This document shows, piece by piece, positions 41,671 through 46,057 of a stretch of DNA of 64,000 bases. The notes beneath the pieces were generated by a model. That model did not search any database. It had not been told where the DNA came from and worked only from the letters and a program-made list of their open reading frames with translations. The stretch is taken from the IMG/VR virus record IMGVR_UViG_3300037391_000010, positions 91,418 through 155,417 of that record. One strand, 5' to 3'. This DNA is from a virus. The translations under genes and the position numbers were made by a program. The stretch's first letter is position 1. Each line of letters opens with the position of its first letter.

Positions 41671-42182
41671 TAGATGCCGTCCTTCGCCGCTTTGGTTTTG
41701 AATTCTTTGGCGTTGTCGTAGATGCAGAGGACACCAAAATGCTCGGTGTTGCTGACGATCATGGTGAAGTCCTTGCCGCGATAGGTCTCGGCGGCTGAGA
41801 ACTCAGACCACGGGCGATCCGTGCAGTCCTGTAGGGTGACCTCCCGACACACGTTGTGGAGGACTTTATCGAATTCCTCGTCATAGCCGAAGTATTCGTA
41901 GATTCGCTTCCGAAGCAGGTTGTAACCAGTGAGCAGCGGGAATCCGGCGGATGTCGGCATGGTGAGTTTTGAGTCTGACAGAGTGAGGCCGAAGCTGTCA
42001 AGCCAAAGCTTGATGTAGGCCAGCACTTTCGTGCCCGCCCACTTCGCCCGCAGGATTTGCTCGGGCGTCAGTTTGGTCACGTCTTCGAGGGTCTCGCAAC
42101 CCAGTCGCTTCAGAACGTTCTTCGCTCGTGTCGGTAGGTTCTGCGATTTCTCAACGCTGATCGCTGCTACGTAGGCATCCAT
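41670..42182 (-). CDS. RNA polymerase alpha-CTD-like domain protein
   Basis: 'LPTRAKNVLKRLGCETLEDVTKLTPEQILRAKWAGTKVLAYIK' aligns by eye to alpha-CTD; AAGGAG RBS and TGGTAGAAT upstream. Confidence 0.8.
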   Translation of the reverse strand: MDAYVAAISVEKSQNLPTRAKNVLKRLGCETLEDVTKLTPEQILRAKWAGTKVLAYIKLWLDSFGLTLSDSKLTMPTSAGFPLLTGYNLLRKRIYEYFGYDEEFDKVLHNVCREVTLQDCTDRPWSEFSAAETYRGKDFTMIVSNTEHFGVLCIYDNAKEFKTKAAKDGI

Positions 42183-42270
42183 AGTGTTCTCCTTGCACCT
42201 CTATTCTACCAAGAAAACACGGATTTCGGTTAGGAATTGTGGCTTTGGAATCAAAGACTTACATAAAGCC

Positions 42271-42295
42271 AAAGGGAACACCTCACGGTGTCCCC
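42271..42295 (-). terminator. Intrinsic terminator downstream of the ncRNA candidate
   Basis: Minus strand GGGGACACC-GTGA-GGTGTTCCC-TTT. Confidence 0.7.
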
Positions 42296-42313
42296 TAAGC
42301 GAAAAGATTAAAA

Positions 42314-42630
42314 GAACGGCGGTCCGACTCCTGACTACGGACAAGCCTTGGCAGTGCTACATTAGTTCCGCCACGAACCCCGCAGGTTATGATCCTATCA
42401 GGTGCCCCCTTTACGGAGCGTTCGGGGAGATTGGTTGCTCCCAACAGGATACAGCCTTCAGTCGATGGGTATCGATTTGTCCTGTCCTTACGACCCTCAC
42501 GGTTAGCCAACCGTGGGTGTTTCGGCGTTATGCAGCAACTTGCTGTACCACCAGACGCTACTCTCTTCGCTTTTCAGCGGCAGCGCCCGTGCTTTCCCTT
42601 AGGCAAAGGGCTAGTTCAGCCAAGCCGTTC
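42314..42630 (-). ncRNA. Large multi-stem structured ncRNA candidate, family unassigned
   Basis: Ends pair (GAACGGC/GCCGTTC); at least 6 internal helices, some with G-U pairs on the - strand; AGTATTA motif upstream, terminator downstream; no credible ORF. Confidence 0.7.
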
Positions 42631-42650
42631 ACATTACATAATACTGGAAG

Positions 42651-43058
42651 TCAAGATTGTTTGGCCGAGAATTTTGTGGCAAAAGGAGTGACTTTCACAA
42701 CGACGGCGGGAATGGTGTCGAAGCCCAGCCGTTCCCATGCAATGAGCCGATGGTGTCCATCCAGAATGGTAAGCTGTCCGTCCTTCAGTTGGAGCCAGAT
42801 GGCCTCTAATTCCTTGCTGCGCCAAATGGTCTTCACCAGATCGACGACTTCTTGCTCGAAAAGAGGTGTGTCCCACCGCCATTTGCCGCCATCGGTGGGA
42901 TTCCGCTCGATTGAGGTGAGGGGCACGTCCTGATTCTCTATCGCTAGGTTGGTCTGGTTGGAGAGGTAGAGAGCCCGAAGATTAAACCATGCGACGGAGC
43001 GACGGCGGGTGTGATCCGAGAATGGATCAACATAGTTGATTACGAAGGGATCGTACAT
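42651..43058 (-). CDS. ParB/Srx-like domain protein
   Basis: 'LTILDGHHRLIAWERLGFDTIPAVVV'. Confidence 0.8.
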   Translation of the reverse strand: MYDPFVINYVDPFSDHTRRRSVAWFNLRALYLSNQTNLAIENQDVPLTSIERNPTDGGKWRWDTPLFEQEVVDLVKTIWRSKELEAIWLQLKDGQLTILDGHHRLIAWERLGFDTIPAVVVKVTPFATKFSAKQS

Positions 43059-43699
43059 AGCCTGTCCAGTTCCCGCTGCATATTCTCCCGAGCCTGAAGG
43101 GTGTAGGCTCCCGCGAACTGGGGGCTGAAGTAAAGCTGCGGTCGAGCGAGGAAGGTCTTCAGGAATGCCATACGGCCAGCTTTCCACATCTCATCGCTGG
43201 CGAAGTTGTACTCCATGCGGATGAGGCGGGTATTTTCATCGTACTGCTCGGCTGACGACCCCAGTCCCGCGAGATCGATATCGGTGACGAGGTTGACGTG
43301 CTCGGTGTGGGTGGTGCTGAGGATCAGGGCAATGATTTTGTCGGCATCCTCTACGTCGAATCCCAGTACAGGGTTATCCTTCTCGAAAACCATCGCGCTG
43401 CGGGCTTCGTTGTCGTCACGGGTGGGGTCGTAAACCGCATCGTGGTAAGCCCACGCAAAGAAAGTAATGGGGCTCATTTTGTCGAAAAACTTGAAGTATT
43501 CGCTGAATCCGAACTGGATGTGTCCCAGTGTGTGGTAGTGGCGGTGGGGTTCCAGATAGCGGTTCATCAGCGCCTTCCAGACGTACCCGATCCTGATATC
43601 GGTGGGACAATTTCTTCCCGCACGTGGAGCCGTCCGAACAAAGTCCGAGAACTTCAGGATGGGGGACGGCTTGTAGTCTTCGTAGGGCGGATACTTCAT
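43040..43699 (-). CDS. HD-superfamily phosphohydrolase (COG4339-like)
   Basis: 'RHYHTLGHI...YHDAVYDP...NEARSA...DIDLAGLG...IRMEY'. Confidence 0.85.
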   Translation of the reverse strand: MKYPPYEDYKPSPILKFSDFVRTAPRAGRNCPTDIRIGYVWKALMNRYLEPHRHYHTLGHIQFGFSEYFKFFDKMSPITFFAWAYHDAVYDPTRDDNEARSAMVFEKDNPVLGFDVEDADKIIALILSTTHTEHVNLVTDIDLAGLGSSAEQYDENTRLIRMEYNFASDEMWKAGRMAFLKTFLARPQLYFSPQFAGAYTLQARENMQRELDRLCTIPS

Positions 43700-44491: not shown

Positions 44492-44944
44492 TCACTTGGA
44501 CGCTTGACCTTTCAGCAGATTGATCGTGCCTCGGCATTTCTTTGTACCGCAAAGGCAGATGACGGGATTTTTGTCGTACTCGAACTGGTAATCTACGGTC
44601 AGTTCTTCGCCCCTCTTGATTCGCCGAAGCGAGTAGAAGTAGACGCGGTGCCCGCGAATTTCCGCGTAAAGGTTCGGGTCGCACGAGTGGTTCACCCGCT
44701 CGGCTCCGCTACCCCTCACCGCTCCATCTAGCGACCAGTAATCGTCCAGACAGTATGTGTAGATGTACTTCCGACCGCTTGTCACTTCTTTGTGTTGGCG
44801 GCGGTTCAGCAATTGGCCCGTGTATTCGATGACGTATTCCCCAGCCGGGATGCTTTGCTCGGCGATGACGCCCCAGCGGTGGATGGGGGATCGAACAATC
44901 GCCAGATTGAACCACGTGTAATCGGAATTGATGCGGGGTATCAC
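44492..44944 (-). CDS. SET-domain lysine methyltransferase with post-SET
   Basis: 'WGVIA...EYTG...NHSCDPN...GEELTVDY...CLCGTKKCRG'; start uncertain. Confidence 0.92.
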   Translation of the reverse strand: MIPRINSDYTWFNLAIVRSPIHRWGVIAEQSIPAGEYVIEYTGQLLNRRQHKEVTSGRKYIYTYCLDDYWSLDGAVRGSGAERVNHSCDPNLYAEIRGHRVYFYSLRRIKRGEELTVDYQFEYDKNPVICLCGTKKCRGTINLLKGQASK

Positions 44945-45028
44945 TGCGGGTCTCCCGGCAGACGTTGCGCGATGACGCGGTGAACCAGCCAGATGACGAA
45001 GCCGCCCCATCCAAGACCCAACGCGATT

Positions 45029-46057
45029 TTACCGAGCAGTAGCCAATCCATTGTACTCAACTGCCTTTCGCATCCAGTGTTGATCTGTCTGCACATGCTT
45101 CGCACGGACGTATTTCCCAACAACATAGGGAAATTCCACCATACTAAACGCTCTTGCAGGCCGAACGACTAGCCCCTCCTGCGTCTCAGGGTTGAGTTGC
45201 TTGCACAACTCTTGGCACAACCCGTCTGAGTACGTCCCCCAATAGATCAGGGGCACTGTGGTGAGGCCGAGTAATGCTGACCACTCCATTGTCTCACTCC
45301 ACGACAGGCAAGTCAAACCGTTCCAGATGTTGAAGACCATGAAGTACGACGGGAGGTTCTCGTACCGAATGGAATGCACTGCCGTCAGGTTCTCGCCACA
45401 GACGCGGTAGTTCTCGGGAATTTCGTAGCCTACCTCGGCGTGGATCGCCTTGATGTGGGTGCGTGATTCGTGGGGCTCGAATTCCATGGAGCGGGCGTGG
45501 AGACTGTTGTGGTAGAACGTGGTGCCCTCGCCGTCCATTTTCTCGGTTATGACGACTTCCCGCCCATCCCATCCTTCAGTGCTTGGCAACTGACGGTCAT
45601 CATTTTTGAGCCCCGGTGACCACAGGAAATGGTATGTCCGAGGGTATTTGATTCGCTCGGTGAACAGGTGGAGGACGGGCTTGAGGATTTTCTGAACACC
45701 CTCTTCCTCAAAAAGTTCACCACGCATTCGACGACCGTCTGGAAGGATCGCGTTCCCCCACTTGTCGTACTCTTGGTCGGCAAAGAAGTGGGGCGGTAAA
45801 ACGACTGTTGTGATGCCAGCCCTTTCTCGCAAATGACTACATCTGATGAGCGTAGCTTCTGCCGCAAGATGACATTCCGAGCAGAGGCACGCCCCATTGT
45901 CCAAAAAATATCCGCCATCTGGAAATAACCTCCGTTCTATGATGTGGTGGGCGTCTACGCCGGGACGCCCGCAGTTGACACATTTCCCCTTGTCCCGATA
46001 GAACACACCATCGCGGAAGAGTTGTCGTGTTGAACCGCTCCAGCTAAGATCGCTCAT
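45029..46057 (-). CDS. HNH domain fused to an RNA ligase-family nucleotidyltransferase
   Basis: HNH: 'CVNC...DAHHI...NGACLCSECH'. Ligase: 'KYPRT.H', 'TEKMDG', 'GEN', 'EGLVVR', 'KYVR'. Confidence 0.87.
   Translation of the reverse strand: MSDLSWSGSTRQLFRDGVFYRDKGKCVNCGRPGVDAHHIIERRLFPDGGYFLDNGACLCSECHLAAEATLIRCSHLRERAGITTVVLPPHFFADQEYDKWGNAILPDGRRMRGELFEEEGVQKILKPVLHLFTERIKYPRTYHFLWSPGLKNDDRQLPSTEGWDGREVVITEKMDGEGTTFYHNSLHARSMEFEPHESRTHIKAIHAEVGYEIPENYRVCGENLTAVHSIRYENLPSYFMVFNIWNGLTCLSWSETMEWSALLGLTTVPLIYWGTYSDGLCQELCKQLNPETQEGLVVRPARAFSMVEFPYVVGKYVRAKHVQTDQHWMRKAVEYNGLATAR

What the first reader, a model, noticed from the sequence alone, without database searches (positions are those of the whole stretch)
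42271..42645. ~320-nt highly structured ncRNA candidate with its own promoter motif and terminator
Seen on the - strand: closing helix GAACGGC/GCCGTTC; CTTGGC/GCCAAG; GGGCGCTGC/GTAGCGTCT (with G-U pairs) enclosing CGCT-GAAA-AGCG; CAGCA/TGCTG; CACGGTT-GGCT-AACCGTG; CAGGA/TCCTG; GGGAG/CTCCC; CGAAC/GTTCG; GTCCG/CGGAC. It fills one of the largest ORF-free gaps in a dense genome, with AGTATTA ~9 nt upstream and a terminator ~20 nt downstream. I cannot match it to RNase P, tmRNA, SRP, 6S or a group I intron. Inference: a possibly undescribed large phage RNA, conceptually like GOLLD/ROOL-class RNAs.
Basis: partly seen in the sequence, partly recalled or inferred. Interest (0 to 1): 0.8.

Follow-up and report, generated by a model that had tools for sequence, protein, structure and literature searches.

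The report
Self-pairing manA-like RNA of giant phages
The gene-free gap holds a real gene for a folded RNA of about 320 bases that belongs to a widespread, uncatalogued family in giant phages (including the Lak megaphages), is a larger cousin of the cage-forming "manA" phage RNA, and carries two self-complementary loops that suggest it also assembles with copies of itself.

Summary
Window 42314-42630 (minus strand) encodes a structured RNA followed by a terminator (42273-42296). Folding energy alone is not significant (z -1.3). Comparative evidence is: 23 homologues give 90% paired cells against 37-43% for slid controls, and 80 of 96 pairs show changes on both sides. Two are not (CTTGGC/GCCAAG and CAGCA/TGCTG).

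No Rfam 15 family reaches its threshold. Several members give consistent sub-threshold global matches to manA RNA (RF01745, up to 31 bits; cut-off 55). They share its 5' CUGAAUAA-hairpin-UAA module and its 3' hairpins. So this is a larger, differently built relative of manA.

The family occurs once per genome in jumbo and megaphages (Lak-A1, the 735-kb LR756501, soil phages). It often sits inside co-oriented tRNA arrays, and it is sporadic in a few bacterial MAGs.

Two apical loops are self-complementary in nearly every member, although the words differ. Together with a 2026 preprint showing that manA forms RNA-only cages, this points to a trans-acting, self-assembling RNA. Its function is unknown.

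This scan already described the same family on other genomes (e1-1941074, e1-1941116, e1-5810735).

The parts
42314..42630 (-). Core of the structured RNA, from the P1 5' strand to the P1 3' strand (317 nt)
   Evidence: CM R1 match 42308-42634, 281.7 bits. Helix coordinates. Covariation.
42639..42651 (-). Promoter-like motif ACTTCCAGTATTA, 8 nt upstream of P1; it overlaps the last base of the upstream gene's stop codon
   Evidence: Conserved as ACTTTCAGTATTA in the L002/L018/L019 clade. Not enriched in the window. No sigma-70 match. Promoter function is inferred only.
42624..42630 (-). P1 5' strand GAACGGC. It pairs with 42314-42320 (GCCGUUC).
   Evidence: All 7 pairs show changes on both sides; 94% of cells paired.
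42596..42612 (-). P2a hairpin, flanked by the conserved GGCUGAAC (5') and AAAGC (3'). This is the module shared with manA.
   Evidence: Helix 5 is 93% paired, and 6 of its 7 pairs covary. manA alignment.
42550..42592 (-). P2b long hairpin ending in CGCU-GAAA-AGCG (42568-42579). The CUGAAAAG loop is nearly invariant.
   Evidence: Helices 6 and 7 are 93-94% paired, and 15 of their 16 pairs covary.
42495..42517 (-). P4 hairpin. Its apical loop GGCU (42505-42508) is self-complementary.
   Evidence: The loop core is self-complementary in all 21 members examined: GGCC, GGUC, GGCU, GCGC or GUAC. The stem is 95% paired.
42445..42484 (-). P5 (CAGGA/UCCUG) with the conserved internal loops GGACAAAUCG and CUGUAUCC. 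CUGA at 42458-42461 forms the pseudoknot with the P8 loop.
   Evidence: P5 is 100% paired. Pseudoknot pair counts: 213-385 CG16/AU3/GC1/UG1; 218-383 GC22/UA1.
42425..42442 (-). P6 hairpin GGGAG-CAACCAAU-CUCCC, the second module shared with manA
   Evidence: 99% paired, and 4 of 5 pairs covary. manA alignment.
42375..42422 (-). P7 domain: closing helix AACG/GUUC, a GNRA-like hairpin, and the P7b hairpin (42379-42401). The P7b apex holds the palindrome GAUC (42391-42394).
   Evidence: The P7 closing helix covaries (helix 14). The P7b apex holds a Watson-Crick palindrome of at least 4 nt in 22 of 23 members, in at least 7 different words.
42361..42372 (-). P3 3' strand (GGCGGAACUAAU). It pairs with 42524-42535 and encloses P4-P7.
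   Evidence: The inner 4 bp covary: 133-335 is UA14/CG7/GC2. The outer part is misaligned for the window by R1. By eye it is GCUGCAU/AUGUAGC.
42321..42343 (-). P8 hairpin GUCCG-UAGUCAGGAGU-CGGAC, directly before the P1 3' strand. UCAG at 42331-42334 is the pseudoknot partner.
   Evidence: 95% paired, and 5 of 7 pairs covary.
42273..42296 (-). Intrinsic terminator hairpin followed by a U-rich tail
   Evidence: Terminator scan. Compensatory changes in L002, L018 and L019.

Best explanation
Window 42314-42630 (minus strand) is a stand-alone gene for a stable, trans-acting structured RNA. A promoter-like motif lies upstream and an intrinsic terminator follows it.

The RNA belongs to a family of about 300-350 nt that is present once per genome in many jumbo and megaphages. 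There it is usually co-transcribed inside tRNA arrays.

Its fold has these features:
- a 7-bp closing stem (P1);
- a 5' domain with a nearly invariant GAAA-capped hairpin;
- a central multi-helix domain (P3-P7);
- a 3' hairpin (P8) that stacks next to P1 and pseudoknots with the P5 internal loop.

The family is a distant, larger relative of the manA RNA motif of T4-like cyanophages.

Two apical loops (P4 and P7b) are self-complementary in almost every member. The most likely mode of action is therefore that the RNA pairs with copies of itself through kissing loops into a dimer or a closed higher-order particle, as manA, ROOL and GOLLD do.

Shown here: the fold, the family, its distribution, and the self-complementary loops.
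Inferred: self-assembly; release from tRNA-array transcripts by tRNA-processing enzymes acting at the tRNA-like P1/P8 stack; and a role in translation or tRNA biology during infection.
For: Structure:
- 23 homologues; 90.3% of cells paired against 37-43% when partners are slid; 80 of 96 pairs changed on both sides; 0 of 500 shuffles reach the observed values.
- The three closest lineages alone already show compensatory changes in every helix.

Family and distribution:
- Full-length CM matches of 88-210 bits in diverse viral contigs of 157-300 kb, at GC 33-58%.
- Matches in Lak-A1 and in the 735-kb LR756501.
- One copy per genome in 5 giant phages.

Not a cis-regulator:
- It has its own terminator.
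- The downstream gene has its own leader, conserved in L013 and L014, which lack the RNA.
- Elsewhere the RNA sits between co-oriented tRNAs. In L083 the match starts 3 nt after tRNA-Met, and in Lak-A1 it lies between tRNA-His and tRNA-Met.

Link to manA:
- Global sub-threshold RF01745 matches in 6 members (31.1, 26.4, 24.2, 19.9, 16.4 and 9.7 bits), and no other non-tRNA family recurs.

Self-pairing:
- The P4 loop is GGCC, GGUC, GGCU, GCGC or GUAC in 21 of 21 members.
- The P7b apex holds a palindrome in 22 of 23 members, with at least 7 different words; the chance of this per sequence is about 0.26.
- manA forms RNA-only 60-mers, 10-mers and 8-mers through kissing loops (preprint 10.64898/2026.07.01.735769).
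- ROOL and GOLLD form cages and lie near phage tRNA islands (PMC12286853).
Against: - No expression data could be obtained, so the transcript, its ends and its abundance are unproven.
- The manA scores are below Rfam's cut-off (55.2 bits). The narrow model R1 does not find a true manA, and nhmmer sees only the GUGACUGAAUAA word.
- The order of some modules differs from manA, so the shared motifs could be convergent.
- A 4-nt palindrome in a loop closed by U-A pairs may be sterically hard to use for kissing unless the stem end opens.
- The palindromes could reflect something else, such as an extended-duplex dimer or a protein site.
- The window itself has no tRNAs, so the tRNA-array argument comes from relatives.
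- The alignment was fitted by a CM, which leans towards its own structure. The slid controls argue that this bias is small.
Confidence: 0.7

Rival explanations
1. A monomeric trans-acting RNA that works by binding a protein or acting as a decoy. For example, it could sponge a host tRNA-targeting defence nuclease, or partner with RNA-repair or Ro60-type proteins. In this reading the palindromic loops are incidental.
For: - tRNA-array context.
- In the window the RNA follows an HNH-RNA-ligase / SET / HD cluster.
- In L097 a Ro60/TROVE gene lies 0.7 kb downstream.
- The topology of P1 (7 bp) plus the P8 hairpin is that of a tRNA acceptor/T-arm (sequence).
Against: - Neighbouring protein genes differ in almost every lineage.
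- The ParB-like gene is absent next to the RNA in L061, and its homologues in L006-L008 lack the RNA.
- Self-complementarity is kept while the loop words change. That is hard to explain without RNA-RNA pairing.
Confidence: 0.14
2. A ribozyme, for example a phage tRNA-processing catalyst comparable to RNase P, or a self-processing RNA.
For: - Its size, pseudoknot, invariant junction nucleotides and conserved GAAA loop are typical of large ribozymes.
- It is embedded in tRNA arrays.
Against: - No match to any RNase P, intron or small-ribozyme family, even at E up to 10.
- None of the conserved RNase P sequence blocks is present (from my own knowledge of M1 RNA).
- Its closest relative, manA, is a structural assembly with no reported catalysis.
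Confidence: 0.08
3. A cis-regulatory leader or riboswitch for the downstream alpha-CTD-like gene, as manA was first proposed to be.
For: - manA was catalogued as a riboswitch candidate in 5' UTRs (PMC2864571).
- The RNA is co-oriented with the downstream gene.
Against: - A terminator with no competing alternative fold lies between the RNA and the gene.
- The gene's own conserved leader is present in L013 and L014 without the RNA.
- Many members are flanked only by tRNAs.
- The downstream genes are unrelated across lineages.
- Even true manA in P-TIM68 is followed by an opposite-strand gene.
Confidence: 0.04
4. Not an RNA gene: a protein-coding or antisense ORF, or chance hairpins in a spacer.
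For: - The antisense strand is open for 108 codons in the window.
- The MFE z-score is only -1.3.
Against: - The longest ORF falls to 41-58 aa in AT-rich members, and the open frame changes between members.
- Helices covary pairwise.
- Indels are not multiples of three.
- The element lies between tRNAs in many phages.
Confidence: 0.01

Closest known systems
manA RNA motif (Rfam RF01745; Weinberg et al. 2010, PMC2864571; cryo-EM preprint 10.64898/2026.07.01.735769)
   Same: - Phage-borne.
- The 5' module G-CUGAAUAA-hairpin-UAA(A/G)G.
- A GNRA-capped hairpin and a GUGGU element.
- A P5-like stem, followed by a hairpin of the form UKG-nnGG-UAA..AAU-CCnn-C just before the closing strand.
- Global sub-threshold CM matches in six members.
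- Apical loops suited to kissing contacts, which build the manA cages.
   Different: - 300-350 nt rather than 192 nt.
- Extra helices: a long-range P3, a P4 with a palindromic loop, the P7 domain, and P8 with a pseudoknot.
- The order of the GAAA hairpin and the GUGGU element is swapped.
- Scores are far below the gathering cut-off.
- Found in giant phages of soil, gut and rumen, inside tRNA arrays, rather than next to metabolic genes of T4-like cyanophages with no tRNA within 2.5 kb.
ROOL and GOLLD RNAs (Rfam; Kretsch et al. 2025, PMC12286853)
   Same: - Large ornate RNAs of phages and prophages, often near tRNA islands.
- Function unknown.
- They form homo-oligomers through loop-loop contacts.
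   Different: - No sequence or CM similarity.
- This RNA is about half the size of ROOL and well under half the size of GOLLD.
- Its self-assembly is predicted here, not shown.
tRNA-like domains of tmRNA and bacterial Y RNA (YrlA)
   Same: - The 5' and 3' ends pair in a 7-bp stem.
- A hairpin lies directly before the 3' strand.
- It is encoded among tRNAs, and in one phage next to a Ro60 gene.
   Different: - No T-loop sequence, no encoded CCA and no G-U identity pair.
- ARAGORN finds nothing in 27 loci.
- The P8 loop has 11 nt and is used for a pseudoknot.

Membership tests
manA RNA (RF01745) | Covariance-model score at or above the gathering cut-off (55.2 bits) | tested here: not met
   Window 9.7 bits. 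The best family member, L106, scores 31.1 bits. A true manA in P-SSM2 scores 181.6 bits.
manA RNA (RF01745) | 5' module GUGaCUGAAUAA-hairpin-UAAgG | tested here: met
   The window has UUGGCUGAAC-[P2a hairpin]-GAAAGC. The family consensus is GUGGCUGAAYAA-hairpin-UAAAGC.
manA RNA (RF01745) | Overall architecture: 192 nt, with the closing helix returning right after the P6-like hairpin | tested here: not met
   Here P1 closes only after the additional P7 domain, the P3 3' strand and P8. The core is 317 nt.
manA RNA (RF01745) | RNA-only homo-oligomers built by kissing loops and GNRA-receptor contacts | not testable with these tools
   There is sequence evidence only: two self-complementary apical loops and an invariant GAAA loop.
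GOLLD / ROOL | Match to the Rfam models | tested here: not met
   No match at gathering score on the window or on 7 loci. No match at E up to 5-10 on the RNA or on 7 other members.
GOLLD / ROOL | Phage or prophage location next to tRNA islands | tested here: met
   Met for the family. Not met for this window, which has no tRNA.
tmRNA / tRNA-like RNA | Acceptor stem plus canonical T-arm; for tmRNA also a tag reading frame | tested here: not met
   ARAGORN finds none in the window or at the RNA in 26 loci. The P8 loop is UAGUCAGGAGU, not UUCRANY.
RNase P RNA / group I intron | Match to Rfam models; for an intron, interruption of a host gene | tested here: not met
   No matches. The upstream ParB-like ORF ends where its homologues end, and the downstream gene keeps its own leader in phages without the RNA.
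Riboswitch / cis-regulatory leader | Consistent position in the 5' UTR of a gene, with an expression platform | tested here: not met
   A terminator and a separate conserved leader lie before the next gene. Many members are flanked by tRNAs only.

The most novel reading that the evidence does not exclude
The RNA is a third kind of phage tRNA-island RNA, beside GOLLD and ROOL. It is cut out of tRNA-array transcripts by RNase P/Z acting at its tRNA-like P1/P8 stack. It then uses its two self-complementary loops to build a closed RNA-only particle in the infected cell, and that particle scaffolds or encloses tRNAs or translation components. If so, manA would be a trimmed version of the same device rather than a riboswitch.
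Probability: 0.3. Interest if true: 0.85.

Novelty: new variant of a known kind. Interest (0 to 1): 0.68.

Why it matters
Giant phages carry large tRNA islands whose non-tRNA content is almost unexplored. This RNA is one of the most conserved non-coding sequences shared by megaphages of very different hosts: Lak phages of Prevotella, a 735-kb phage, and soil jumbo phages. No RNA database names it.

It ties the long-orphan manA "riboswitch candidate" to a broader class of trans-acting phage RNAs. It also extends the recent finding that phage RNAs can build protein-free assemblies to a new and larger scaffold.

It gives structural biologists a defined construct (window 42314-42630, or the Lak version). 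The test is clear: two palindromic loops to mutate and to rescue.

Tried and rejected
- Single-sequence folding: z -1.3 on the RNA strand and -1.5 on the other strand, so uninformative.
- blastn of the gap, or of other members, against GenBank phages: nothing for the window. Only Lak phages and LR756501/LR756503 for other members; no cultured phage.
- Pattern scans built on the 5' domain or the P8 loop gave only the known clade plus chance hits: GAAGAGAGT..GGTGGTACAG, GCTGAAAAGC..GGTGGTACAG, AAGGCTT..GTAGTCAGGA and TGGCTGAAC..GGTGGTACAG. The extra hits were checked with the CM or by eye.
- The central-domain pattern opened up the family. It also hit a prasinovirus-type protein gene in 16 loci, which I discarded.
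- The ParB-like gene as an obligate partner: rejected. L006-L008 have the gene without the RNA, and L061 has the RNA without the gene.
- Housekeeping bacterial RNA: rejected. It was found in 1 of 151 Bacteroidales sampled and in 2 of 41 genomes of one genus.
- A broader CM from 20 sequences could not be built, because calibration was forecast at 8 minutes. The reciprocal test against true manA was therefore done only with the narrow R1 (no hit) and with nhmmer (only the GUGACUGAAUAA word).
- S-PM2, Syn9 and S-RSM4 hold no manA, so they gave no context.
- Literature searches by motif words returned only primers.

Full report
**What is in the window**

On the minus strand a ParB-N-like ORF ends at 42651-42653. 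The next gene, an RNA-polymerase alpha-CTD-like protein of 170 aa, starts at 42182. That leaves 468 nt without a credible gene.

A terminator-like hairpin with a U-rich tail lies at 42296-42273. Rfam 15 gives no match at gathering score anywhere in the 64-kb window. In permissive mode there is only a 9.7-bit match to manA. ARAGORN finds no tRNA or tmRNA.

The minimum-free-energy fold is no better than shuffles (z -1.30). The hairpins seen in one sequence are therefore not evidence by themselves.

The window is the 3' part of a 155-kb IMG/VR record judged 48% complete, which makes it a jumbo phage.

**Finding relatives**

- The flanking proteins led to a sister clade (L002-L005, L018, L019). 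Its gap is about 70% identical over its whole length.
- A metagenome scan with a 5'-domain pattern added a third lineage, L061.
- These three lineages already show compensatory changes in every helix. P1, for example, is GAACGGC/GCCGUUC, GAGCCAC/GUGGCUC and AGACGAU/AUCGUCU.
- A pattern from the central domain (GGACAAATCG..CTGTATCC), screened with a covariance model built on the close clade (R1), then opened the family. It gave full-length matches of 88-210 bits in viral contigs of up to 300 kb and in seven MAG contigs, at GC 33-58%.
- blastn from these members reaches the Lak megaphages and the 735-kb phage LR756501. R1 confirms both, at 98 and 134 bits.
- Five giant phage genomes each hold exactly one copy.
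- In bacteria the RNA is sporadic: 1 of 151 sampled Bacteroidales, and 2 of 41 genomes in one genus.

**Structure**

I counted pairs on the 23-sequence alignment, using a structure revised by a scan for covarying columns.

- 90.3% of cells are paired, against 37-43% when partners are slid by 1-3 columns.
- 80 of 96 pairs change on both sides, and no shuffle out of 500 reaches any observed measure.
- The alignment was fitted by a CM, which leans towards its structure. The gap to the slid controls is far too large for that to be the explanation.

The fold, in window coordinates, has these parts:

| Element | Coordinates | Notes |
|---|---|---|
| P1 | 42630-42624 / 42320-42314 | 7-bp closing stem |
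| 5' domain | 42622-42540 | Invariant GGCUGAAY, hairpin P2a, UAAAGC, and a long hairpin capped by a nearly invariant CUGAAAAG |
| P3 | 42535-42524 / 42372-42361 | Long-range helix enclosing P4-P7 |
| P4 | 42517-42495 | Hairpin with self-complementary loop |
| P5 | 42484-42445 | Carries the invariant GGACAAAUCG and CUGUAUCC |
| P6 | 42442-42425 | Hairpin shared with manA |
| P7 domain | 42422-42375 | Closing helix, GNRA-like hairpin, P7b hairpin |
| P8 | 42343-42321 | Hairpin directly before the P1 3' strand |

A 4-bp pseudoknot joins CUGA in the P5 internal loop (42461-42458) to UCAG in the P8 loop (42334-42331). Two of its pairs covary.

CTTGGC/GCCAAG is paired at background level (66%), and CAGCA/TGCTG is peculiar to the window.

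Coding is excluded. ORF lengths and frames are not conserved, and AT-rich members have nothing longer than 41-58 codons.

**Context**

- In many phages the RNA sits inside co-oriented tRNA arrays at tRNA-like spacing. In L083 the match starts 3 nt after tRNA-Met. In L106 it lies between tRNA-Met and tRNA-Pro. In Lak-A1 it lies between tRNA-His and tRNA-Met. Arrays of 7-18 tRNAs surround it in L094, L110, L098, L100, L077 and L069.
- In the window's lineage it is free-standing.
- The ParB-like gene and the RNA together are absent from L013 and L014. There the HD-phosphohydrolase gene (86% identical) abuts the conserved leader of the alpha-CTD-like gene.
- The ParB-like gene is not an obligate partner.
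- Neighbouring genes otherwise vary: a ClpB-D2-like AAA+ ATPase in L061 and L104, as in the window two genes further on; Ro60/TROVE in L097; a reverse transcriptase in L112; sugar-metabolism genes in Alistipes-type MAGs.

This is the pattern of a trans-acting RNA gene, not of a leader.

**Relation to known RNAs**

In permissive Rfam searches, the only non-tRNA family that recurs on the element is manA (RF01745). The matches are always global and on the right strand: 31.1, 26.4, 24.2, 19.9, 16.4 and 9.7 bits, against a cut-off of 55.2.

The alignments show which modules are shared:
- G-CUGAAUAA-hairpin-UAA(A/G)G;
- a GNRA hairpin;
- a P5-like stem;
- the P6 hairpin just before the closing strand.

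The architecture differs in size, in extra helices and in the order of two modules. My narrow model does not find a true manA. I therefore call this RNA a distant, larger relative of manA and not a member.

True manA RNAs in P-SSM2, P-SSM7, P-HM2 and P-TIM68 lie before unrelated genes, once before an opposite-strand gene, and no tRNA is annotated within 2.5 kb of them.

A July 2026 preprint reports that manA RNAs form RNA-only 60-mer, decamer and octamer cages held by kissing loops and a GNRA-receptor contact (10.64898/2026.07.01.735769). ROOL and GOLLD, which are also phage RNAs near tRNA islands, form cages too (PMC12286853).

**Self-complementary loops**

- **P4 loop.** The core is GGCC (12 members), GGUC (3), GGCU (2, including the window), GCGC (2) or GUAC (2). 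All 21 examined are self-complementary, and the middle pair switches GC, CG, UA.
- **P7b apex.** It holds a Watson-Crick palindrome of at least 4 nt in 22 of 23 members, in at least seven different words: GAUC in the window, then UAGCUA, UGAUCA, UCAUGA, UCGCGA, AGCU/CAUG and AUAUAU. Shuffled loops do as well only about a quarter of the time.

Self-complementarity that is kept while the words change is what selection for loop-loop pairing between identical molecules would produce. Two such sites per molecule allow rings or cages, not only dimers. This remains an inference from sequence.

**Mechanism, and how sure I am**

- The RNA gene, its fold and its family: about 0.95.
- Kinship with manA: about 0.75.
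- Self-assembly through the two loops: about 0.6.
- Processing from tRNA transcripts at the P1/P8 stack, which has the strand topology of a tRNA acceptor/T-arm; and a role in translation or tRNA biology: plausible but untested, about 0.2-0.3.

No expression data could be obtained.

**Earlier notes of this scan**

After I had reached the manA link and the P4 palindrome on my own, a look-up by sequence showed that follow-up agents had already described the same family on giant gut-phage genomes (e1-1941074, e1-1941116). They also named the preprint and a second self-complementary loop. I then checked both the preprint and the second loop myself.

**Verdict**

The RNA is not yet in Rfam, and I found no paper that describes it. 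It is, however, a variant of a known kind: the manA / ROOL / GOLLD-type phage RNAs.

Noticed in passing
window 42183-42262 (minus strand); L013:2930-3000; L014:1811-1886: The leader of the alpha-CTD-like gene (TAAGTCTTTGATTC..AAAGCCACAATTCCTAACC..CTTGGTAGAATAGAGGTG) is conserved in four lineages, whether or not the RNA cassette is present. It contains an extended -10-like TGGTAGAAT and looks like a phage promoter with its 5' UTR.
   Followed up: partly
window 42268-43058 compared with L013 and L014: The ParB-N-like gene, the RNA and its terminator together behave as an indel of about 0.8 kb between the HD-phosphohydrolase gene and the alpha-CTD-like gene. In L013 and L014 these two genes are adjacent.
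   Followed up: partly
L097:1220-4047: In a complete 215-kb phage the RNA is followed by a weak tRNA-like match (1707-1777, 23 bits) and then by a Ro60/TROVE + vWA gene. The tRNA-like piece may be a phage Y RNA (YrlA-type) beside its Ro protein.
   Followed up: no
L110:7324-7398; L069:3716-3788: The tRNA arrays around the RNA include suppressor-type tRNAs (anticodon tta, and cta called 'Pyl'). Some host phages may therefore use a recoded stop codon.
   Followed up: no
L107:2864-3170; L108:3144-3450; L111:7026-7330: Alistipes/Bacteroidales MAG contigs carry the RNA in a chromosomal-looking setting (GH95 fucosidase, sugar nucleotidyltransferase, glycosyltransferase, host-type tRNAs). It lies divergent from the nucleotidyltransferase gene. 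Only 2 of 41 genomes of that genus have it.
   Followed up: partly
L112:1018-3826: In one Bacteroidales MAG a 155-aa ORF and a reverse-transcriptase gene (RVT_1) follow the RNA on the same strand.
   Followed up: no
window 44492-46057 (minus strand): Upstream cluster: an HNH endonuclease fused to an RNA ligase (45029-46057), a SET-domain protein (44492-45010) and an HD phosphohydrolase (43040-43699).
   Followed up: partly
L129 (P-TIM68 KM359505 152815-152989): A true manA RNA is followed by a gene on the opposite strand. In other cyanophages it precedes purL, gp32 or a hypothetical gene. This fits a free-standing RNA better than a riboswitch.
   Followed up: partly
window 42308-42634, plus strand: The strand antisense to the RNA is open for 108 codons here and in L061, and the plus-strand ORF 42184-42933 (249 aa) overlaps the region. 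This open frame is not conserved in AT-rich members and is most likely an effect of base composition.
   Followed up: yes
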